Part shown: positions 20,551 to 56,131 of the stretch, one piece after another
How positions within the stretch are numbered: position 1 is the first letter of the stretch
How the letters are laid out: each line of letters opens with the position of its first letter
Origin: a virus
Taxonomy: Duplodnaviria > Caudoviricetes
Length of the DNA stretch: 64,000 nucleotides
Direction: 5' to 3' (one strand)
IMG/VR virus record: IMGVR_UViG_3300013121_000033
Location: 1 to 64,000 of that record
Program-made: the position numbers and the translations under genes
Notes under the pieces: generated by a model
Told to the model about the DNA's origin: nothing
Seen by the model: only the letters and a program-made list of their open reading frames with translations
Database searches by the model: none

Positions 20551-21201
20551 TCAACCGTCGTCGTCGGGCCGGTCCGCTCCCCACCGCCACACGGCGGGGC
20601 GCTCTAGGCGGTAGCCCGTGGCGGTCATCACGGTGTCGGGTAGCAGCGACTTCCGGATCTTCGATCGACTGATGGTGAAAGCCTCTGGGTCCACGGTGCG
20701 CAAGTGCTGCGAGGGTCGCTCAGGTGGGAACGCAACGATCACCCGCTTCCCCGCAGCACGTACCGCCTCGACGGCGGCGACCTGGTCGGCGTCGCCCGAG
20801 ATAAGCATGACGGTGTCGTAGGCATCAGCGTGGGCACCGGTGACCATGTCGACCGCGAGGTTGACGTCGGTCCGCTTCTCGACACGCCGGTCGGTCGTCC
20901 TGTCGCAGTGCTTGCAGTCCCACGGCTCGTACCGGACGAACCCCTCGATGATCTCGAGCTGAGGCGGCGGCCGGTGCGCACGGAGAGCATCGAGGTAGAG
21001 GCTCTGGCGTTCCCGGCTGTCCGCGGGCCTCTTCACCCGGGCCGTGTAGTACCTGACCGACTCGAGGTAGTGGTCTGCCGGGAGAAGCCGCTCGACGAGG
21101 TCGACCAGGTCGAGCCACAACGCGCCACGAAGGCCGGCCTCGTCCAGGCCGAAGTACAGGTTGAACCCGTCGATGTGGGCTCGTAGGCGCTGCAGCGACA
21201 T
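20551..21201 (-). CDS. NYN (LabA/DUF88, PIN-fold) ribonuclease
   Basis: IDGFNLY, VRYYTA, EKRTDVNLAVD, LISGDAD. Confidence 0.92.
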   Translation of the reverse strand: MSLQRLRAHIDGFNLYFGLDEAGLRGALWLDLVDLVERLLPADHYLESVRYYTARVKRPADSRERQSLYLDALRAHRPPPQLEIIEGFVRYEPWDCKHCDRTTDRRVEKRTDVNLAVDMVTGAHADAYDTVMLISGDADQVAAVEAVRAAGKRVIVAFPPERPSQHLRTVDPEAFTISRSKIRKSLLPDTVMTATGYRLERPAVWRWGADRPDDDG

Positions 21202-21435: not shown

Positions 21436-21891
21436 TCAGGCGGACATCCGACGGGCCCGCACGATCTCGAGTTCCCGGAGCGCTTGCGAGGCAACGACCT
21501 GGGGGACCTCGAACTCGTCGGCGACGTCGGCGGCGGTGACCCCATGGCCAAGGCCGGCGACCCGGTCGACCATCGGGCCGAGCTCGTCGAGCGGCACGAG
21601 CCGTAGCGCCACCTCGCGGTGGATGCGGTTCTCCTCGCGTACGACCTCGACCGAGAGCGCACCGCGGATGTTGCGACAGTGCGAGATCGTCCCGCGCTCG
21701 AGGTGGAGCAGCTCGTGCGCGAGCGCGACCTTCCGCTCGGCCTGGGTGAGCCGCCGGTCGAGCACGATCACCGTCGCCGGGCCCCGCCTGGCCAGCACGG
21801 CGCCGCCGGTCTCGTTGGGGAGCTCGGCGAACGTCATGGTGACGTCCGGGAGCTGCTTGAGGACCCGCCACGGCGACCAGCGTTGAGACAT
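21436..21891 (-). CDS. ImmA/IrrE-family metallopeptidase (antirepressor protease)
   Basis: ERKVALAHELLH, E..., ADEFEV HTH. Confidence 0.88.
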   Translation of the reverse strand: MSQRWSPWRVLKQLPDVTMTFAELPNETGGAVLARRGPATVIVLDRRLTQAERKVALAHELLHLERGTISHCRNIRGALSVEVVREENRIHREVALRLVPLDELGPMVDRVAGLGHGVTAADVADEFEVPQVVASQALRELEIVRARRMSA

Positions 21892-21919: not shown

Positions 21920-22010
21920 GTCTGGGCTTGGCCGTGCCGACTACCCCATCCGCGCGCGCGGCCTCCGGCGGGCTTACGGTGCGGTCTTGCGGCCCCCACC
22001 CGCCCATGGT

Positions 22011-22040
22011 AGATCTTTGGATCTCAAGATCTTTAGATCT
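22011..22040. repeat. Four tandem RGATCY sites at 8-bp period upstream of the RM operon
   Basis: AGATCT 22011, GGATCT 22019, AGATCT 22027, AGATCT 22035. Confidence 0.95.
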
Positions 22041-22056
22041 TCCAGAGGGGGCAAGC

Positions 22057-22332
22057 ATGGCAAGGACGACGGGCACGGCGAGCGTGGCAGACCTCGTGAA
22101 GTCCGGGACACTGAAGCCCGGCGAGCGCCTCGAGGCGCGCCGGCGGTCGGCGCCGGCTATCGCCGCGTCGGTGAGCGAGACTGGGCTTATCAAGGTCGGC
22201 CGCAAGGAATTCCGCACACCGACCGAAGCGGCGAAGGCCGCGCTCAACCGGACCTCGGTCGATGGCTGGCTGACGTGGCGGGTGCCACGACTCGACGACC
22301 GCACTCTTGCCGACGTGAGGGACGGCCGATGA
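22057..22332 (+). CDS. Stand-alone RAMA-domain protein
   Basis: DLVKSGTLKPGERL...G.I.V....F.TPTEAA...DGWLTW...L.D.R pattern of RAMA (DUF4357-like). Confidence 0.8.
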   Translation: MARTTGTASVADLVKSGTLKPGERLEARRRSAPAIAASVSETGLIKVGRKEFRTPTEAAKAALNRTSVDGWLTWRVPRLDDRTLADVRDGR

Positions 22333-22952
22333 TCGACCTCACCCTCGACCACCTCGGCGGCGTCCCGTTCGGGACCGTGCTCGCGGACCCGCCGTGGCGG
22401 TTCCAGAACCGCACCGGCAAGGTCGCACCGGAGCACCGCCGACTGTCCCGCTACGACACCATGACCACCGCGGAGATCTGCGACCTCCCCGTAGCCGACC
22501 TGATGGCCGACCAGTCGCACTGCTACCTGTGGGTCCCGAACGCGCTCCTCGCTGACGGCCTAGCGGTGATGGAGGCCTGGGGGTTCACGTACAAGTCGAT
22601 GGTCGTGTGGGCCAAGCGCCGCAAGGACGGCGGCCCCGACGGTCGCGGTGTCGGCTTCTACTTCCGCAACGTCACTGAGCCGATCCTGTTCGGGGTGCGC
22701 GGCAAGCTCCGCACACTCGAGCCCGGCCGCCGCCAGGTCAACATGATCGAGACCCGCAAGCGCGAGCACTCCCGCAAGCCCGACGAGCAGTACGACATCA
22801 TCGAGGCCTGCTCGCCGGGCCCGTTCCTGGAACTGTTCGCCCGCTACCCGCGTGAGGGCTGGTCAACGTGGGGCAACGAGGCCGACCCCGAGGTCGTGCC
22901 CCGCGGCCGCCAGTGGCCGACCTACGGCGGCGTACCGGTCGCCGGCACCTAG
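22329..22952 (+). CDS. MT-A70 family DNA methyltransferase
   Basis: LADPPW, YLWVPN, WGFTYK, EHSRKP, LELFAR, WGNE. Confidence 0.93.
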   Translation: MIDLTLDHLGGVPFGTVLADPPWRFQNRTGKVAPEHRRLSRYDTMTTAEICDLPVADLMADQSHCYLWVPNALLADGLAVMEAWGFTYKSMVVWAKRRKDGGPDGRGVGFYFRNVTEPILFGVRGKLRTLEPGRRQVNMIETRKREHSRKPDEQYDIIEACSPGPFLELFARYPREGWSTWGNEADPEVVPRGRQWPTYGGVPVAGT

Positions 22953-23614
22953 CTGACCCGGATCCGGTAGGTCAACGGCGAGATCGCCACAGCGAGCACC
23001 GGGCATCCACCGGGGTCGCCCCGGGTGAGCCTCGGCTCGAGCTTCTCGAGGTTGGTCGTCGTCGAGGTGTCGAACTTCTTCTCGTCTGCGCCGCGCTGCG
23101 CAGCGAGTTCTCGGATCGACTGGGTCCGGGTGATGATCACGGCACCGTCGATGACGCCCTCCTGGTAGAGCGCCCGGTAGGCGGACAGGTCCCTGTCGAG
23201 GTTGCCGTCCTTGGCGTTCCACTCGACGTCTAGCGCGACCCGCCCCTTGAGGTTGTCGACCTTGTAGCTCTCCGACTGCACCGTGCTGACGTACTCGAGG
23301 ACGGTCTTCTCGCCGGCGGTCCGCCACGGCATGACCCTCTTGACGCTGGTCACCTCGAGGTTGTGCTGGCCCTCGCGCCATCCGAGCTCACGGAACTTGT
23401 CGTCGAGCGCCCTGGCGGTGATCGACTTGTTGCCCCCGGGTGAGAGGAGGTCCTCGTCGGTCAGGTCGAACCAGTCGAGGACGTCCACGATCTCTCGCAG
23501 CTCGTCGGGGTTCGTTGCGGCGAGCACGACGGCGGCGTTGCGCGTCTCCCGCATCTCGTAGCGGCGCAGGACGTAGTCCGGCATCACGTCGAGATAGCTG
23601 AAGGTCAGGTCCAC
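22949..23614 (-). CDS. BglII/BstYI-family type II restriction endonuclease
   Basis: PGGNKS, KVDNLKGRVALDVEWNAKD..DRDL, GAVIITR, GGCPVL; convergent with the MTase. Confidence 0.88.
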   Translation of the reverse strand: MDLTFSYLDVMPDYVLRRYEMRETRNAAVVLAATNPDELREIVDVLDWFDLTDEDLLSPGGNKSITARALDDKFRELGWREGQHNLEVTSVKRVMPWRTAGEKTVLEYVSTVQSESYKVDNLKGRVALDVEWNAKDGNLDRDLSAYRALYQEGVIDGAVIITRTQSIRELAAQRGADEKKFDTSTTTNLEKLEPRLTRGDPGGCPVLAVAISPLTYRIRVS

Positions 23615-23710: not shown

Positions 23711-23974
23711 TCAGGTGGCCGGGTCCAGCTGGTCTGCCATCCCTCGGAGCACCCCGGCTGCGAACACCCGCAGCTCGTCGGCCAGGTCGTCGTGCCCGGC
23801 CTGTCGGAGGGTGTCCACGACCTCGGCGAGATCGTGATCCCGCCAGTCGGTGAGTGGCTGAGCGAGCCGATCCCCGATCCGGAGCCCGTCGAGCCACACG
23901 GCGGCCTCGCCGGCGATGCCCTGATCGGCTGCGGCCCGATCGAGCGCGGCGGCGAGCTCGTCGGCCAGGGTCAC
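23711..23974 (-). CDS. Hypothetical protein downstream of the repressor
   Basis: ORF with coding-like codon usage. Confidence 0.55.
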   Translation of the reverse strand: MTLADELAAALDRAAADQGIAGEAAVWLDGLRIGDRLAQPLTDWRDHDLAEVVDTLRQAGHDDLADELRVFAAGVLRGMADQLDPAT

Positions 23975-23982
23975 CTGGTCAG

Positions 23983-24399
23983 CTACTTGTCGCCGTCGAG
24001 GTAGGGCTTCACGATCCTGATGACGGCCTGGCGGACCTCGTCGGGAACGTGGCGCATCGCGCTGTTGAAGTCCAGCTCGATCTCCTCATCCCCCGGCCGT
24101 GGCGGCGGTTCCGGCGCGTCCTCGCCGGCGATGAAGAGGCGGATCACGGTCAGCAGCCGGTGGTCAGGTGGGTCGATGGCAGCCTCGGCGTCGTAGAGCG
24201 TCCGCCACTCCTCCGAGGTCACGCCTAGGAGCTCGTTGACCTCGGCCAGCGTTGCGACGCTGGGGGCCACGCCCGATTCCCACTTCGAGACCGACTGCTG
24301 GGTGACGCCGAGCTTGTCGGCCATGGCCTTCTGTGAGAGGCCGCGAGATGTGCGAACGGCGCGCATGAACTCGGTCATGGCCTGATGGTGAGCGTCCAC
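23983..24399 (-). CDS. XRE-family immunity repressor (CI-like)
   Basis: GLSQKAMADKLGVTQQSVSKWESG; divergent from the Cro-like gene. Confidence 0.88.
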   Translation of the reverse strand: MDAHHQAMTEFMRAVRTSRGLSQKAMADKLGVTQQSVSKWESGVAPSVATLAEVNELLGVTSEEWRTLYDAEAAIDPPDHRLLTVIRLFIAGEDAPEPPPRPGDEEIELDFNSAMRHVPDEVRQAVIRIVKPYLDGDK

Positions 24400-51685: not shown

Positions 51686-54600
51686 TCAACCTGCGGGGGC
51701 GGCGGGACCGGCGACGGGTTCACCTGCCGGGACCACTTCCCATTCGGATGTCGTCCCGGAGAGGAACCCTGAGGGGATACCGCCACCGACGCCGATCTGA
51801 GCCCACGTCCCGTCGGGCTGCTTCACGAGGGGGACGCCGCGGCCGTCGACCCGTCGGATCGTTGTTCCTGCCTGCTCGGCGTCGAATCCGGAAGTGTCGC
51901 CGCGCTTGATCCGCTTCCGCTTCGGCGGAGTCGGCGTGGATGGCTTGTCGGACTGTGGGACTTCGGTGGTGAGCGGGCGGATGCCAGCCGGGCGGCTGCC
52001 GTCGCCTTCGACGTCGACACGCCAGTCGGCGTCGAAGGCGATGTCCTCGTCGGTGAACTCGGTGCCGGACGAATCGACCCATGTGCCGGTCGAGGTGCGG
52101 CGGAGTTGGTCGCCGACGCCGTCTGTTCGAGAGATGCGCGAGTCGGTGGGGAGCGCAGCGAGCGCGTCCGGGGTGTGCTTCGGGATCACAGTCGCGAGGC
52201 GTGCCCGGTTGTCGACCACGACTCCGTCGGTGAACAGCCCGTCGGCGAGCATCGCGTCGAAGTTGTCATCGACACTCGACGCAGCCCCGGGGAGTTGCGG
52301 TGCCGCGGTATCCCACGTTTGCGGCGGCACGAGGCGCCCACCGTCGGGGGTGGCGGCACCGCGTGCGTAGCGGTCGAGAGCGGATCGGCGTGAACCATCG
52401 AGCGTGATCCGGGCGTTGATCCCGACCCGTTCGTCGTAGCCGCGGTCGACGAGTTGTTGGACCTTCTTCTGGACGCCGCCGCGGGACACGAGGGTGCCGT
52501 CCAACGCGACGTTGTAGCCCTCGTCGATGAGCCGCTGCCACAGGGCCTTCGACAGGTACGACGACTCTTCGTGGGTGAGGCCGACCGTCTCCATCGGCTT
52601 GAGCCCTTCGACGTGCGGGTAGGCGCCGTGGTGGATCAGCGCTTCCTTCATGAGGTCGGGGTTGACGACGACGTGGGTGACACCGTCGGGGATGTCACCG
52701 GTGCCGGGCTCGAACATGACGAACCCGCGTTCGGCGGCCGGTCCACCCGGTTGCAGGGCGGTGGATTTCCCGGCGCCGGGGAGGCCCGCCATGATGACCG
52801 CACGACGTTCCTTCGGGACCTTCCCTTCGACCTGGCTGATGATGTCGTCGATGATCTGCTGGTGGAGGGCCTGGCGTTCCGGTGTCCATTCGTCGCCGTT
52901 GGGGCCGAGACGGTTCTCCAAGACGTGCGTGTCGAGCGGGCTGTCGGTGAGCGCGAGGTCGGAGAGGATCGCGGTGAGGGCCGCAGCGCGGTCGTAGGGC
53001 CGGTCGAACCCGGGGACGGACGCGACTGCTTCCTCGACCTGCGTGCGGAACCCTTGCGCCTCGGGGGTGAACCGCAACCCGACGTCGGCGTCGGGAAGGT
53101 TGACACCCTTGTCGATGGCTGCCTTGATCTTCTCGATGTCGCCGGGGTCGGCCTCGGGACCGGAGAACACTGAGGCGCCGGGGATGCCGACTTCGGCGGT
53201 GTACGCGTTCGCGAGAGCGAGGAGTTCGGTGATCGGCATGTCGATCCGTTGGATGTCCATGTCGGCTGCGCCGTCACCGTTCGCGAGGGCGTACGCAGCT
53301 TGGGCGGCCCACCGGTGGTGGCCGTCGACGACGTAGTCGTCGGACGACACGAAGATCGTGCCGCGCACAGCGTTCGGGTCGACTCCGATGTCCCGGTAGA
53401 TCGCTGCAACCTTGGCGCCGTCGAGTTCCGCTTGGGACGCCTTGAGCATCGACGGGTTGATCCGTTCGTCGGTGACCGTGACACCGGTCGAGCGGACGTA
53501 GTCGACGAACTGGTCGCCGACGTTCACCCACCCTTGGTCGTCGCGAGGGAGTGAGGCCGCCATGGTCCCGGGGAGCGGGTCCGGCGACGAGAACTGCGGC
53601 ATGTGGATGCGTTCGATCCCTTTGTTGTCCGCACAGAACAGGTTCGTGCCGGGTACGGACACGAGGCACAGGTCGTACTTGGGTGCGTCCGCTCCGGCGG
53701 CGACCGCTTCCTTCACCATCTCGTCGAGCTTGTCGACGAGAGTGGATACCTGGCGTTCGTGCGCGAGTTGGACATGCTGCTTCTGTGCGATGAGCGCGGC
53801 CGCTGTCTGGACGTCGGTGGTCTGGAACGGGTTCGCCTTGGTTCCGTCGCCAGCGGTCACCTGGTCGGCGAGGTCCGGGGTCAGATCAACCTTGGACAGG
53901 TCCGCCGTCGACCCCGAGGCTGCCGGGCTGGCGGCTTCGGGGTAGGAGACGACCTTGCCGGTGATGCCGTTGACGTTGATGGCGCTCGCTACGTTGCCGT
54001 GCTCGTCGCTGATCGTGCCGTCGTCGTTCAACGTGATCGTGTCGGCGAGGCCGTCAACCTTGAACTTCGTTCCGGCCGGGTACTTCGACGTGTCGATCTG
54101 ATGCTCGGTGTCGACCTCGGGGCGGTCCATGGCAGGAGAACTGACGGTGGGGAACCGTGACTTTGGGGGTTCACCCGCCGATGCTGCACGGTCAGCTTCG
54201 CGTTGTTGGCGGGCCGCTTCTTCCGCTGCGCGGCGGGCGGAGCGTTCTGCGCGGCGGGCGTCTCGGTCGGCAGCGACCTTCTCCCAGTCGGTGTTCCCGG
54301 TGTCCGGTTCCTGCGGCGCCCCATCGGGGAAGTACCCCCACTCCATGAGGTCATCGCCCGCGTACCGGACACTGTCGGCGGGAACCTGTTCGGACACGAC
54401 AACACCGGGGCCACCCGCGATGTTGGACGCGGCGTGCTGCTCTGCGTAGCTCCGGGAGAGCGTCACCCAATCGCCCTGGCCGAACGCCTTGCCCTGGTCG
54501 GCGACATCGGAAGGGACAGCCCGGTAGATCGTGACGGTCGCATCGGGGTTGCCGTCGACTGACCGGAGCGCGGCCATTGTCTCATCGACACCACCCGGGT

Positions 54601-56131
54601 TGGACGTGCCGTATCGCTCAGGGTGGTCCGCCCAATTGGCGGGCATCATCTCCGTGTCGTTGATGAGTTCCGCGGCGGACGGCCCGTACGTGGGGGTATG
54701 GCCGACTCCATGGCTGAACGCGTCGGGCGAGTCGGTGGAGTCGATGTTGAGGACGCTGCCGTCGGGGACCCGCCACTCGTGAGCGATCGGGTCTTTGAGG
54801 TCGACACCCATCGTTCCCGGCTTCGGTGACACCGTGACGATCCCAACGTTGTTGGGGTCGAGGTTTGCGAGGTCGTCGGCCTTCACGCCGGTGATGAACA
54901 TGTCGCGGGGACCGCCGCTGAATCCGCGTTGCATCGCGAACGTCTGGTAGAGGCCGAGCCGCTTCTGCGGATCATCGAACCGGCTGAGGTCGGAACCTTC
55001 GACAGCGACGAGGTTGTCGTAGAACGGGGCGGACCCTCCGTCGCCGGTCTTGGCGCGTTCGAACAGGTCGGCGGCGGTGATGTCTCCGCGGGCGACGGCG
55101 CGGGCTTCGAGAATCTGGTCGCGGATCAGGTCGGCGGTGGCACGGTCCGTGGTGAGACTGATCGCGTGGTCGGTGCCGCCACCGAGCCCCGACCCCGACC
55201 CGACACCGAGGTCGGCACGCGACTTGAGTGCCCCGTCGGCCTTCACCGCGGACAGGTTCGTGGTGACGTGGTACAGGGTGTCGGGGAGCGGGTCGAACCG
55301 GTCGGCCTGACCGTTCGAGATGTCATGAGCGACCGACTCCGCCTGCCACGGGGCGAGGCCGTAGTCGGACGTCAACTGCTCCTGACGGATGTCGCCCCGA
55401 GAGATCGCCTTCGCCGCTTCGACATTCCACGCCGGGGTGATGTCGGCGACACCGTCCACCTTCGGGGGAACCGGCAACGCAGCGTTGACCTGGGGGACGT
55501 CGGGGGCAACTTTGTCGGGAGTGTCGACTTCGGGGAGTTCGGGAAGGTCGTCCAACCACGACGAGAACTCGCGGTTCGCGAGGTCCCATGCGTTCTGGTC
55601 GTCACCCGGTTCCGACGGTCGTTCGCCGAGCACCTTCGCCGCCCACATGCCACGGTTCTCCCGAGAGTGGGGGCCTCGACCCCACCCGTCGGCCGCTTCC
55701 TTCAACTTCTTGTCGAACGACGCGAGGAGTTCGGTGCGGGCTGCGCCGTCCCCTTTGAGCAGCTTCCGGAGTAGGCCCTTGGACACGAACCCCTTGGGAG
55801 CGAACCTGCCGCTGTTCGGATCGTGCCAGTAGCCGAGTTCGTCGAGGCCGCCACCGATCCCGTCGCCCACCTCGTCCGCCGCCGACTTCACTTTCCGCTT
55901 CCCCGCGGCGGCGGTCACGCCCGGCTGGTACGGCTCCGGTTCGAGGTAGAGGTCAACTTTGTTGGCCCCGTAGTGGGCGATGACCTGTGCAAGTGGGACG
56001 GCTTCGCTATCCGGTTCGCCGTCCTCCCACACCATCGTGGTGTCGTCAGGGGTGCCGGATGCCCAAGATAGAAGCCTGCCGTCAGGGGTGTCGGCGACGA
56101 CGTAGACGGGCGCGGTGGCGGTGTCGGTCAC
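51686..56131 (-). CDS. Polyvalent protein (1481 aa): two ART-like domains, ParB/Srx, Zeta-toxin-like kinase
   Basis: LYHVT..ISLTTD..E; IYRAVP..GDWVTLS..YA..H..EWGY; VVDGHHRWAA; GLPGAGKS..NPD..K..HEES..ALDGT. Confidence 0.8.
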   Translation of the reverse strand: MTDTATAPVYVVADTPDGRLLSWASGTPDDTTMVWEDGEPDSEAVPLAQVIAHYGANKVDLYLEPEPYQPGVTAAAGKRKVKSAADEVGDGIGGGLDELGYWHDPNSGRFAPKGFVSKGLLRKLLKGDGAARTELLASFDKKLKEAADGWGRGPHSRENRGMWAAKVLGERPSEPGDDQNAWDLANREFSSWLDDLPELPEVDTPDKVAPDVPQVNAALPVPPKVDGVADITPAWNVEAAKAISRGDIRQEQLTSDYGLAPWQAESVAHDISNGQADRFDPLPDTLYHVTTNLSAVKADGALKSRADLGVGSGSGLGGGTDHAISLTTDRATADLIRDQILEARAVARGDITAADLFERAKTGDGGSAPFYDNLVAVEGSDLSRFDDPQKRLGLYQTFAMQRGFSGGPRDMFITGVKADDLANLDPNNVGIVTVSPKPGTMGVDLKDPIAHEWRVPDGSVLNIDSTDSPDAFSHGVGHTPTYGPSAAELINDTEMMPANWADHPERYGTSNPGGVDETMAALRSVDGNPDATVTIYRAVPSDVADQGKAFGQGDWVTLSRSYAEQHAASNIAGGPGVVVSEQVPADSVRYAGDDLMEWGYFPDGAPQEPDTGNTDWEKVAADRDARRAERSARRAAEEAARQQREADRAASAGEPPKSRFPTVSSPAMDRPEVDTEHQIDTSKYPAGTKFKVDGLADTITLNDDGTISDEHGNVASAINVNGITGKVVSYPEAASPAASGSTADLSKVDLTPDLADQVTAGDGTKANPFQTTDVQTAAALIAQKQHVQLAHERQVSTLVDKLDEMVKEAVAAGADAPKYDLCLVSVPGTNLFCADNKGIERIHMPQFSSPDPLPGTMAASLPRDDQGWVNVGDQFVDYVRSTGVTVTDERINPSMLKASQAELDGAKVAAIYRDIGVDPNAVRGTIFVSSDDYVVDGHHRWAAQAAYALANGDGAADMDIQRIDMPITELLALANAYTAEVGIPGASVFSGPEADPGDIEKIKAAIDKGVNLPDADVGLRFTPEAQGFRTQVEEAVASVPGFDRPYDRAAALTAILSDLALTDSPLDTHVLENRLGPNGDEWTPERQALHQQIIDDIISQVEGKVPKERRAVIMAGLPGAGKSTALQPGGPAAERGFVMFEPGTGDIPDGVTHVVVNPDLMKEALIHHGAYPHVEGLKPMETVGLTHEESSYLSKALWQRLIDEGYNVALDGTLVSRGGVQKKVQQLVDRGYDERVGINARITLDGSRRSALDRYARGAATPDGGRLVPPQTWDTAAPQLPGAASSVDDNFDAMLADGLFTDGVVVDNRARLATVIPKHTPDALAALPTDSRISRTDGVGDQLRRTSTGTWVDSSGTEFTDEDIAFDADWRVDVEGDGSRPAGIRPLTTEVPQSDKPSTPTPPKRKRIKRGDTSGFDAEQAGTTIRRVDGRGVPLVKQPDGTWAQIGVGGGIPSGFLSGTTSEWEVVPAGEPVAGPAAPAG

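What the first reader, a model, noticed from the sequence alone, without database searches (positions are those of the whole stretch)
22011..23614. RAMA reader + MT-A70 writer + BglII-type nuclease with a phased array of four RGATCY sites in the operon leader
Seen: AGATCTtt GGATCTca AGATCTtt AGATCTtc is an AT-rich island in ~72% GC DNA. It has four RGATCY palindromes at exact 8-bp period and ends 16 nt before the RAMA start. RAMA is translationally coupled to the MTase; the REase is convergent; no C-protein is present. Known: BglII cuts AGATCT and BstYI cuts RGATCY; RAMA domains are proposed readers of methylated adenine; some RM promoters are controlled by methylation of their own site. Inference: the array reveals the system's target and forms an epigenetic feedback switch. 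Unmethylated on entry, it allows MTase expression; once methylated it is bound by the stand-alone RAMA protein, which represses the operon (possibly relieving convergent interference on the REase). A methyl-reader acting as RM controller is not a regulatory scheme I know to be described.
Basis: partly seen in the sequence, partly recalled or inferred. Interest (0 to 1): 0.82.

Follow-up and report, generated by a model that had tools for sequence, protein, structure and literature searches.

The report
Phased target-site array controlling a restriction-modification operon
A small bacterial restriction-modification cassette carries four tightly phased copies of its own likely cutting site on top of the promoter of its methylase operon. 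This array travels strictly with a small RAMA DNA-binding protein in relatives, so it looks like a new kind of self-sensing switch and gives RAMA domains a natural DNA target to be tested on.

Summary
Four RGATCY hexamers sit at an exact 8-bp period at 22011-22040, 16 nt before a 91-aa RAMA gene. That gene overlaps (ATGA) a 207-aa MT-A70 methylase, which converges on a BglII/BstYI-family nuclease.

The array is not chance. Of 18 distinct RAMA+MT-A70 loci from other organisms, 16 carry 2-4 RGATCY sites at exactly 8 bp just upstream of RAMA. None of 73 RAMA-less loci of the same R-M family has such a pair. All 52 tallied array sites fit RGATCY. Most arrays are preceded by TGNT, which reads as an extended -10 overlapping site 1.

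RAMA-less relatives instead fuse an HTH to the methylase. The HTH_58 class keeps two AGATCT sites around its -35.

Two relatives fuse RAMA to the methylase in frame. The RAMA model matches the DNA-clamping C-terminal domain of CcrM.

My reading is a methylation-coupled autoregulatory operator, read by RAMA acting together with the methylase. Whether RAMA reads m6A is untested, and the literature disagrees on it. I class this as a new variant of known R-M autoregulation (CfrBI type, SsoII type). An earlier scan note on other DNA had only seen the BglII-like/MT-A70 pairing, not the array.

The parts
22011..22040 (+). Array of four RGATCY hexamers at an exact 8-bp period (AGATCT, GGATCT, AGATCT, AGATCT). 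Proposed operator and methylation sensor of the RAMA-MTase operon.
   Evidence: Conserved as 2-4 sites at 8 bp in 16 of 18 distinct RAMA+MT-A70 loci, and absent from 73 RAMA-less loci.
22007..22015 (+). TGGT followed by the first site, which reads as TGnTAGATC, an extended -10-like element overlapping site 1. A TTGCGG -35-like hexamer lies at 21987-21992, 17 bp upstream. This promoter assignment is inferred, not mapped.
   Evidence: TGNT precedes the first site in 12 of 17 arrays, against about 1% expected from base composition. In L098 a TTGACC / TATGTT promoter abuts the array. The consensus promoter scan found nothing.
22045..22051 (+). Shine-Dalgarno GAGGGGG of the RAMA gene.
   Evidence: read directly from the sequence.
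22057..22332 (+). Stand-alone RAMA-domain protein of 91 aa, with a conserved N-terminal MARTTGT tail.
   Evidence: PF18755 E=1.6e-14. AF2 model with pLDDT 87.5. Foldseek matches the CcrM C-terminal domain 6PBD (TMq 0.75-0.78) and MPND RAMA 7YDT/7YDW. Subfamily alignment.
22329..22952 (+). MT-A70 family DNA methyltransferase of 207 aa with a DPPW motif. Translationally coupled to RAMA through an ATGA overlap. Inferred product is RG(m6A)TCY.
   Evidence: PF05063 E=2.5e-27. Closest solved relatives are ciliate MTA1/AMT1 DNA 6mA methylases. A homolog of 67-84% identity lies next to the REase homolog in 78 of 80 loci.
22949..23614 (-). BglII/BstYI-family type II restriction endonuclease of 221 aa, convergent with the MTase gene (4-nt overlap).
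   Evidence: PF09195 E=1.7e-27. D120, D129 and E131 are invariant in 24 homologs. A weak direct match to BstYI 1SDO covers the D...ExQ-equivalent block. 1631 homologs were found.

Best explanation
This is a type II restriction-modification cassette. Its likely target is RGATCY, protected by N6-methylation of the GATC adenine. The RAMA-MTase operon appears to be autoregulated through a dense, phased array of the system's own target sites laid over its core promoter.

Proposed mechanism (inferred):
- On arrival in a naive cell the array is unmethylated and unoccupied, so the promoter fires and makes RAMA and MTase in coupled amounts.
- The MTase methylates the genome and the array.
- RAMA is a small DNA-clamping domain that in relatives is fused to the same MTase. 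Alone or with the MTase, it then occupies the array, which overlaps the -10 and the transcription start, and throttles the operon.
- This keeps MTase low enough that incoming DNA is cut before it is modified.

Shown here:
- the genes and their domains;
- the array and its strict co-occurrence with RAMA;
- the restriction of array sites to RGATCY;
- the RAMA fold;
- the natural RAMA-MTase fusions.

Inferred:
- the recognition sequence and the methylated base;
- the promoter position;
- that RAMA binds the array;
- the sign of regulation and its dependence on methylation.
For: (1) Comparative conservation. 16 of 18 distinct loci with a MARTTGT-type RAMA next to MT-A70 have 2-4 RGATCY sites at exactly 8 bp immediately upstream of RAMA. 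This holds although RAMA identity is only 45-60% and the flanking DNA is unrelated. The two exceptions keep two sites, at 10 bp (L033) and at 16 bp around a one-mismatch middle unit (L109).

(2) Specificity of the link. 40 of 46 close site pairs in RAMA loci are 8 bp apart, and 0 of 73 RAMA-less loci (570 kb) has one. In a quick MTase tree, 11 RAMA-less loci sit inside the RAMA clade and none has an array.

(3) An orphan RAMA+MTase pair without a REase (L099) keeps a 3-site array. The array therefore belongs to the RAMA-MTase unit.

(4) All 52 array sites tallied over 17 loci fit RGATCY (39 AGATCT, 7 AGATCC, 4 GGATCT, 2 GGATCC). This is exactly the BstYI-type degeneracy, as expected if the sites must stay substrates of the MTase.

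(5) Promoter overlap. TGNT precedes site 1 in 12 of 17 arrays, and L098 has a clear -35/-10 abutting the array.

(6) Analogy within the same MTase family. Other clades carry a fused C-terminal HTH_58 or N-terminal HTH_3. The HTH_58 clade has two AGATCT sites flanking the -35, upstream of a TANNNT -10 and a leaderless start. RAMA thus occupies the slot of a regulatory DNA-binding module.

(7) RAMA is fused in frame to MT-A70 in L087 and L090, and both still have arrays.

(8) Established precedents, as reviewed in PMC3874152: MTase autorepression through a DNA-binding domain (SsoII, EcoRII, MspI) and control by methylation of cognate sites in the M promoter (CfrBI, LlaDII). In an RG(6mA)TCY system, loss of the HTH repressor of the MTase raised MT transcripts about 50-fold and let foreign DNA escape restriction (PMC10287943).
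Against: - No binding, methylation or transcription data exist for this locus or any homolog.
- The two solved RAMA domains bind the DNA backbone non-specifically. For MPND, 6mA made no difference in EMSA/MST (PMC9963953).
- MTases 67-84% identical work without RAMA in most loci, so RAMA is dispensable for catalysis, and conceivably also for regulation.
- TAGATC has C at -7, which makes it a poor -10. The consensus promoter scan found nothing, and the transcription start is unmapped.
- RAMA loci cluster on the MTase tree. The co-occurrence may therefore reflect few evolutionary events (quick tree, weak support).
Confidence: 0.55

Rival explanations
1. RAMA is only a catalytic helper of the MTase, a trans-acting equivalent of the CcrM C-terminal domain that clamps the non-target strand. 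The array acts without any reader. Methylation of adenines inside the -10 and start region directly changes RNA polymerase activity, as in CfrBI or the IS10 pIN promoter (the latter from my own knowledge).
For: The RAMA fold equals the CcrM C-terminal domain, which is essential for CcrM activity and binds only phosphates (PMC6787082). RAMA is fused to the MTase in L087 and L090 and is translationally coupled here. Cognate sites also sit in M promoters of RAMA-less relatives. Control by promoter methylation is documented (PMC3874152).
Against: This does not explain why the 8-bp phased, 3-4-site architecture appears only where RAMA is present, or why it is lost in RAMA-less members of the same MTase clade. 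Near-identical MTase cores function without RAMA.
Confidence: 0.25
2. Free RAMA is a genuine m6A reader that binds the array only when it is methylated, represses the operon, and thereby also relieves convergent interference on the REase gene.
For: RAMA was predicted to discriminate m6A from its domain architectures (PMC4738411). MPND RAMA pulled down 6mA DNA selectively in one study (PMC6591016). The operator is built of methylatable target sites and overlaps the promoter. The convergent gene order holds in most RAMA loci.
Against: The 6mA preference of MPND was not reproduced (PMC9963953), and that RAMA did not bind Dam-type G(6mA)TC (PMC6591016). CcrM RAMA makes no base contacts (PMC6787082). 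The in-frame fusions argue that RAMA does not act independently of the MTase. No data bear on REase interference.
Confidence: 0.25
3. RAMA is a methylation-blind, sequence-specific repressor, a functional analogue of a C protein, whose operator merely resembles the R-M target.
For: The conserved N-terminal MARTTGT tail and the RRR patch are specific to the array-linked subfamily. RAMAs lacking that tail (L100, L107) have no arrays.
Against: The R/Y degeneracy of array sites mirrors enzyme specificity and does not look like a private operator. In a cell with active MTase every site is methylated, so a methylation-blind reading makes the identity of operator and target an unexplained coincidence, and one repeated in the HTH_58 clade.
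Confidence: 0.1
4. The repeat is a by-product with no function of its own: a slippage-generated tandem repeat, or an RNA hairpin in the 5' leader that masks the Shine-Dalgarno.
For: The window's leader folds to -25.6 kcal/mol (z = -2.8), pairing CCCGCC with the SD. Palindromic repeats fold inevitably.
Against: The flanking complementarity is not seen in other loci. The hexamers are conserved while the spacers vary freely, with no compensatory pattern. Conservation extends across loci with unrelated flanks.
Confidence: 0.03

Closest known systems
CfrBI and LlaDII R-M systems (expression set by methylation of the cognate site in the M promoter; PMC3874152)
   Same: The system's own recognition site lies inside the methylase promoter, so the methylation state can feed back on expression.
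   Different: CfrBI has a single site and no dedicated accessory protein (bioRxiv 10.64898/2025.12.04.692298). Here there are 2-4 sites at a fixed 8-bp phase, always with a RAMA gene or domain.
SsoII / Ecl18kI / EcoRII / MspI methylases with a regulatory HTH (PMC3874152)
   Same: A DNA-binding module attached to the MTase acts on an operator overlapping its own promoter. Relatives in this family have HTH_58 or HTH_3 fused to the MTase, and two relatives fuse RAMA.
   Different: In those systems the operator is a separate inverted repeat, not the R-M target. The module here is a RAMA fold, not an HTH, and in this window it is a separate, translationally coupled protein.
Acinetobacter baumannii A118 RMC, phage NrS-3 Nph3I, and M.Ath2165II (RG(6mA)TCY systems; PMC10287943, PMC10734518, PMC4706337)
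   Same: In A118 and Nph3I a PF09195 nuclease is paired with an adenine methylase, and 6mA in GATC blocks cutting. In A118 a small regulator represses the MTase about 50-fold. M.Ath2165II adds the same methylated motif.
   Different: The A118 methylase is annotated simply as a DNA adenine methylase, and the regulator there is a classical HTH. No site array or RAMA is reported. M.Ath2165II is known only from a methylome assignment.
CcrM (beta-class N6A MTase with a C-terminal RAMA domain; 6PBD, PMC6787082)
   Same: The RAMA fold accompanies an adenine MTase. Residues equivalent to G331, W332 and R350 are conserved (G70, W71, R88).
   Different: CcrM RAMA is C-terminal, fused, non-specific and needed for catalysis. 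CcrM is an orphan cell-cycle MTase with no site array at its promoter known to me.
Dam-dependent switches (agn43/OxyR, pap/Lrp, IS10 pIN, SeqA at oriC) and GcrA at methylated GANTC promoters (from my own knowledge)
   Same: Clusters of methylatable GATC or GANTC sites in regulatory DNA are read by proteins or by RNA polymerase according to methylation state.
   Different: Those use orphan methylases and unrelated reader folds. None controls the methylase of an R-M system through a RAMA protein.

Membership tests
BglII/BstYI-family type II restriction endonuclease | Match to the PF09195 profile above its curated cut-off | tested here: met
   96.6 bits against a cut-off of 26, covering profile positions 1-162 of 163.
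BglII/BstYI-family type II restriction endonuclease | Conserved acidic catalytic block (Asp, then D/E-x-E/Q about 9 residues later) | tested here: met
   D120, D129 and E131 are invariant in 24 homologs. The block aligns with the BstYI ...IEVQF... segment, but only at E=0.25.
BglII/BstYI-family type II restriction endonuclease | Cleaves AGATCT or RGATCY | not testable with these tools
   Inferred from the 52 of 52 tallied promoter-array sites that fit RGATCY and from characterised relatives (PMC10287943, PMC10734518).
MT-A70 family N6-adenine DNA methyltransferase | PF05063 match and a DPPW catalytic motif | tested here: met
   96.3 bits against a cut-off of 23.9. ADPPW was read and is invariant in 20 homologs.
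MT-A70 family N6-adenine DNA methyltransferase | Makes m6A, here at the GATC adenine | not testable with these tools
   The nearest solved relatives are DNA 6mA methylases. The only invariant A in RGATCY is the GATC adenine.
RAMA domain (PF18755) | Profile match and the RAMA fold | tested here: met
   54.2 bits against a cut-off of 35.2. The model matches CcrM 6PBD and MPND 7YDT/7YDW at TMq 0.70-0.78.
RAMA domain (PF18755) | Discriminates N6-methyladenine in DNA (the proposed family function) | not testable with these tools
   The literature conflicts: PMC6591016 reports it, PMC9963953 does not.
C-protein-controlled R-M system | A small HTH controller gene conserved next to the R gene, with C-boxes | tested here: not met
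   An HTH_3 gene at 23983-24399 lies two genes upstream of the R gene. It has no homolog in any of about 100 related loci. C-boxes were not sought.
R-M autoregulation through cognate sites in the M promoter (CfrBI type) | Recognition site(s) inside the promoter of the methylase transcription unit | tested here: inconclusive
   The sites lie 16-46 nt upstream of the first gene and overlap a TGnTA-type element. The transcription start is not mapped.
MTase autorepression by an attached DNA-binding domain (SsoII type) | DNA-binding domain on the same polypeptide as the MTase | tested here: not met
   In this window RAMA is a separate ORF. The feature is met in relatives L087 and L090 (RAMA fusion) and in the HTH_58 and HTH_3 clades.

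The most novel reading that the evidence does not exclude
The MARTTGT-type RAMA protein is a true context-specific reader of N6-methyladenine. It coats a densely methylated 8-bp-phased array of RG(6mA)TCY sites and shuts off its own methylase operon. That would be the first methyl-reader-based controller of a restriction-modification system, and the first RAMA domain with a defined cognate DNA ligand.
Probability: 0.27. Interest if true: 0.85.

Novelty: new variant of a known kind. Interest (0 to 1): 0.68.

Why it matters
RAMA domains are widespread in bacterial defence systems and occur in animal chromatin proteins (MPND, MYSM1). Whether they read 6mA has been disputed since 2016.

This cassette and its relatives supply what has been missing. 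They offer a 91-residue RAMA protein with a conserved natural DNA target. That target can be methylated at will with commercial Dam methylase.

The question then reduces to a gel shift and a reporter assay.

Independently of that answer, the data show that a whole family of MT-A70/BglII-like R-M systems builds its own target sites into the methylase promoter, using three different DNA-binding modules (RAMA, HTH_58, HTH_3). This broadens the single-site CfrBI paradigm of methylation-sensed R-M homeostasis.

Tried and rejected
- **Site avoidance as evidence for the target.** RGATCY is almost absent from 32-225 kb of the contig (1 site). That part avoids about 20 different 6-bp palindromes, so the avoidance says nothing specific.
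- **C-protein idea.** The HTH_3 gene, the 87-aa ORF and the ImmA-like gene that flank the cassette have no counterparts in related loci.
- **Apparent RAMA-MTase fusion P0133.** In L098 it is followed by a separate MT-A70 fragment, so it is probably a frameshift and was not counted. L087 and L090 are continuous ORFs.
- **Complex prediction of MTase with RAMA.** It returned no verdict (score 0.00, controls not run). It is not used as evidence either way.
- **Searches that gave little.** NCBIfam gave no names for the three proteins. Plasmid and phage searches did not identify the replicon and gave no link to a sequenced methylome. The first RAMA alignment was too divergent for the locus search. 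The word-based homolog search with RAMA found only 5 relatives; the exhaustive profile search found 871.
- **More distant stand-alone RAMAs.** These lie next to McrBC, next to a T5orf172-like gene with a D12 methylase, or divergent from a BglII-like REase. They have no arrays and lack the MARTTGT tail, so the array is a subfamily trait and not a general RAMA trait.
- **RNA hairpin reading.** Considered and set aside.
Full report
**What is there.** The sequence at 22011-22040 holds AGATCT, GGATCT, AGATCT, AGATCT with 2-bp spacers, an exact 8-bp period. It is 33% GC in DNA of 71-73% GC.

- Sixteen nucleotides downstream, after a GAGGGGG ribosome-binding site, starts a 91-aa ORF (22057-22332). 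It is a RAMA domain (PF18755, E=1.6e-14).
- Its stop overlaps (ATGA) the start of a 207-aa MT-A70 methyltransferase (22329-22952; PF05063, E=2.5e-27; DPPW motif).
- A 221-aa BglII/BstYI-family endonuclease (22949-23614, minus strand; PF09195, E=1.7e-27) converges on the MTase gene with a 4-nt overlap.
- Markov shuffles of the local 32 kb give 0.033 site pairs at 8 bp and no triples in 3000 trials.

**Is the array functional?** I collected 80 loci around homologs of the nuclease (50-63% identity) and looked for the partners by tblastn.

- An MT-A70 gene of 67-84% identity lies next to the nuclease in 78 of 80 loci, so this pairing is an established R-M family.
- RAMA is present in only seven of these loci. 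Every one has RGATCY sites stacked immediately upstream of RAMA.
- A second, independent collection was seeded with RAMA itself from metagenomes, together with look-ups of RAMA representatives. It added eleven more distinct loci.

In total, 16 of 18 distinct loci with this RAMA subfamily next to MT-A70 carry 2-4 sites at exactly 8 bp. The other two keep two sites, at 10 bp (L033) or at 16 bp around a one-mismatch middle unit (L109).

The flanking DNA is unrelated between loci, and the 2-bp spacers vary freely. In RAMA loci 40 of 46 close site pairs are 8 bp apart. In 73 RAMA-less loci (570 kb) there is not a single 8-bp pair.

On a quick maximum-likelihood tree of the MTase core, the RAMA loci fall in one 25-member group. 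That group also holds 11 RAMA-less loci, and none of those has an array. Support on this tree is modest, and one origin of RAMA plus array is not excluded.

An orphan RAMA+MTase pair without any nuclease, sitting in a phage-like run of small genes (L099), still has a three-site array. The array therefore belongs to the RAMA-MTase unit, not to the nuclease.

**What the sites are.** I tallied 52 array sites over 17 loci: 39 AGATCT, 7 AGATCC, 4 GGATCT and 2 GGATCC. None falls outside RGATCY. This is the degeneracy of BstYI-type enzymes.

PF09195 nucleases paired with adenine methylases that make RG(6mA)TCY, and that are blocked by that methylation, have been demonstrated:
- in Acinetobacter baumannii A118 (PMC10287943);
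- in phage NrS-3 (PMC10734518).

The same m6A motif is reported from Gemmatirosa and Azospirillum methylomes (PMC3974934, PMC4706337).

The closest solved relatives of the MTase are DNA 6mA methylases of ciliates. I therefore take RG(m6A)TCY as the probable specificity. This remains an inference.

The near-absence of RGATCY from the remaining 193 kb of the contig is not evidence for it. That part avoids some twenty palindromes.

**Where the sites lie.** In 12 of 17 arrays the first site is preceded by TGNT. That gives TGnTAGATC, the layout of an extended -10 element. In the window a TTGCGG lies 17 bp upstream.

In L098 a clear TTGACC / TATGTT promoter directly abuts the array. The array would then span the -10 and the first 20-30 transcribed bases, a position suited to repression.

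This is inference. TAGATC is a poor hexamer (C at -7), a consensus scan found nothing, and no transcript data exist.

**What relatives without RAMA do.** The same MTase core comes in at least three other forms.

- A C-terminal HTH_58 fusion. It occurs in about 12 loci from Corynebacterium, Actinomyces, Microbacterium, Rarobacter and Lysobacteraceae, and on a Roseovarius plasmid.
- An N-terminal HTH_3 fusion (three loci).
- Bare or otherwise extended forms.

In the chromosomal HTH_58 loci, two AGATCT sites 19-24 bp apart flank the -35 region. They lie upstream of a TANNNT -10 that sits 6-7 nt before the start codon, which implies leaderless mRNAs. On the Roseovarius plasmid the two sites are 12 bp apart.

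Placing the system's own target in the methylase promoter is thus a family habit. RAMA occupies the slot that a regulatory HTH occupies elsewhere.

Both principles are known separately, as reviewed in PMC3874152:
- autorepression by an HTH-bearing MTase (SsoII, EcoRII, MspI);
- control by methylation of a cognate promoter site (CfrBI, LlaDII).

- In CcrM this domain clamps the phosphates of the non-target strand and is needed for activity (PMC6787082).
- MPND RAMA was reported to prefer 6mA DNA in pull-downs, though not Dam-type GATC (PMC6591016).
- A later structural study found sequence-independent binding and no effect of 6mA (PMC9963953).

The m6A-reader role proposed from domain architectures (PMC4738411) is therefore still open. 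PMC11037411 says the same.

Two relatives (L087, L090) encode RAMA and MT-A70 as one continuous 304-307-aa protein, and both still carry arrays.

The array-linked subfamily has a conserved, probably disordered N-terminal MARTTGT tail. RAMAs in other contexts lack this tail and have no arrays. Those contexts are next to McrBC, next to a T5orf172-like gene, or divergent from a BglII-like nuclease.

**Reading.** The best-supported picture is a methylation-coupled autoregulatory operator made of MTase substrate sites. It would be read by RAMA acting together with the MTase, and it would hold methylase expression down once the cell is protected.

The biological need for this is illustrated in A118. 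There, loss of the MTase repressor raised MT transcripts about 50-fold and allowed foreign DNA to escape restriction (PMC10287943).

It is not favoured over a RAMA-MTase complex, or over direct methylation effects on RNA polymerase with RAMA as a catalytic clamp. The strict RAMA-array co-occurrence is the main argument against that last rival.

**Novelty.** I found no paper describing RAMA as a regulator of an R-M system, or phased target-site arrays in R-M promoters. The elements are known kinds: an R-M system, sites in the M promoter, and a DNA-binding module on the MTase. Their combination and the 8-bp array are new, so I class it as a new variant of a known kind.

Noticed in passing
window 32100-64000 and the rest of the 225-kb contig (G000:C1): From about 32 kb onward the contig drops from 71-73% to 67-68% GC. 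It is almost free of some twenty 6-bp palindromes (AGATCT, GGATCC, AGGCCT, ATCGAT, CAGCTG, CTGCAG, TGGCCA, CACGTG, CTCGAG, GCCGGC and others). The first 32 kb, which holds the R-M cassette, has them at expected frequency. This looks like a restriction-avoiding phage or plasmid backbone joined to a different, perhaps recently acquired, segment. There are no tRNAs in the window and no match in the phage collection.
   Followed up: partly
L015, L022, L028, L041, L044, L050, L055, L059, L069, L070, L076, L079; Roseovarius plasmid L096: A sister clade of the methylase carries a C-terminal HTH_58 domain ending in an RGRGRP-like tail. In the chromosomal loci two AGATCT sites 19-24 bp apart flank the -35 region, upstream of a TANNNT -10 that lies 6-7 nt before the start codon (leaderless). 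On the plasmid the two sites are 12 bp apart. This appears to be a second, undescribed way of wiring the R-M target into the M promoter.
   Followed up: partly
L087:496-1407 and L090:445-1365: Natural in-frame RAMA-MT-A70 fusion proteins (304 and 307 aa) with a linker of about 10 residues. Both sit behind RGATCY arrays.
   Followed up: yes
REase start codons of about 12 loci (e.g. L001, L006, L007, L017, L038, L040, L046, L055, L076): The nuclease gene begins ATG-GAT-CT, so an RGATCY site overlaps its own start codon even though GAT is a rare codon in these high-GC genomes. The window's own gene (GTG-GAC-CTG) lacks it.
   Followed up: no
P0127, P0130, P0138, P0143: Proteins of 470-780 aa with three to five tandem RAMA domains (the DUF4357 profile also matches within them). 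Tandem readers would match tandem site arrays, but their genomic contexts were not examined.
   Followed up: no
Actinomycetospora loci (e.g. L016, L018-L020, L023-L027): In this clade the nuclease and methylase are in tandem with no RGATCY sites between them. A different conserved block of about 30 nt (ctgtcggacc...gctagcgtcccgcc) lies in the gap, and the methylase has a low-complexity N-terminal extension. L016 has a 24-bp coding repeat that happens to carry AGATCC three times.
   Followed up: no
window 21436-21891 (-), 23711-24399 (-), 20551-21201 (-), 51686-56131 (-): The cassette is bracketed by an ImmA/IrrE-like metallopeptidase gene and, on the other side, an HTH_3 repressor-like gene plus an 87-aa ORF, all on the minus strand. 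It looks as if the R-M unit had been inserted into an ImmR/ImmA-type module. A NYN-domain gene lies nearby, and a 1481-aa protein with a Zeta-toxin domain lies further on.
   Followed up: partly
L099:2959-2980: An orphan RAMA+MT-A70 pair without a nuclease, inside a run of small same-strand genes (phage-like), keeps a three-site array that overlaps the end of the preceding gene.
   Followed up: partly
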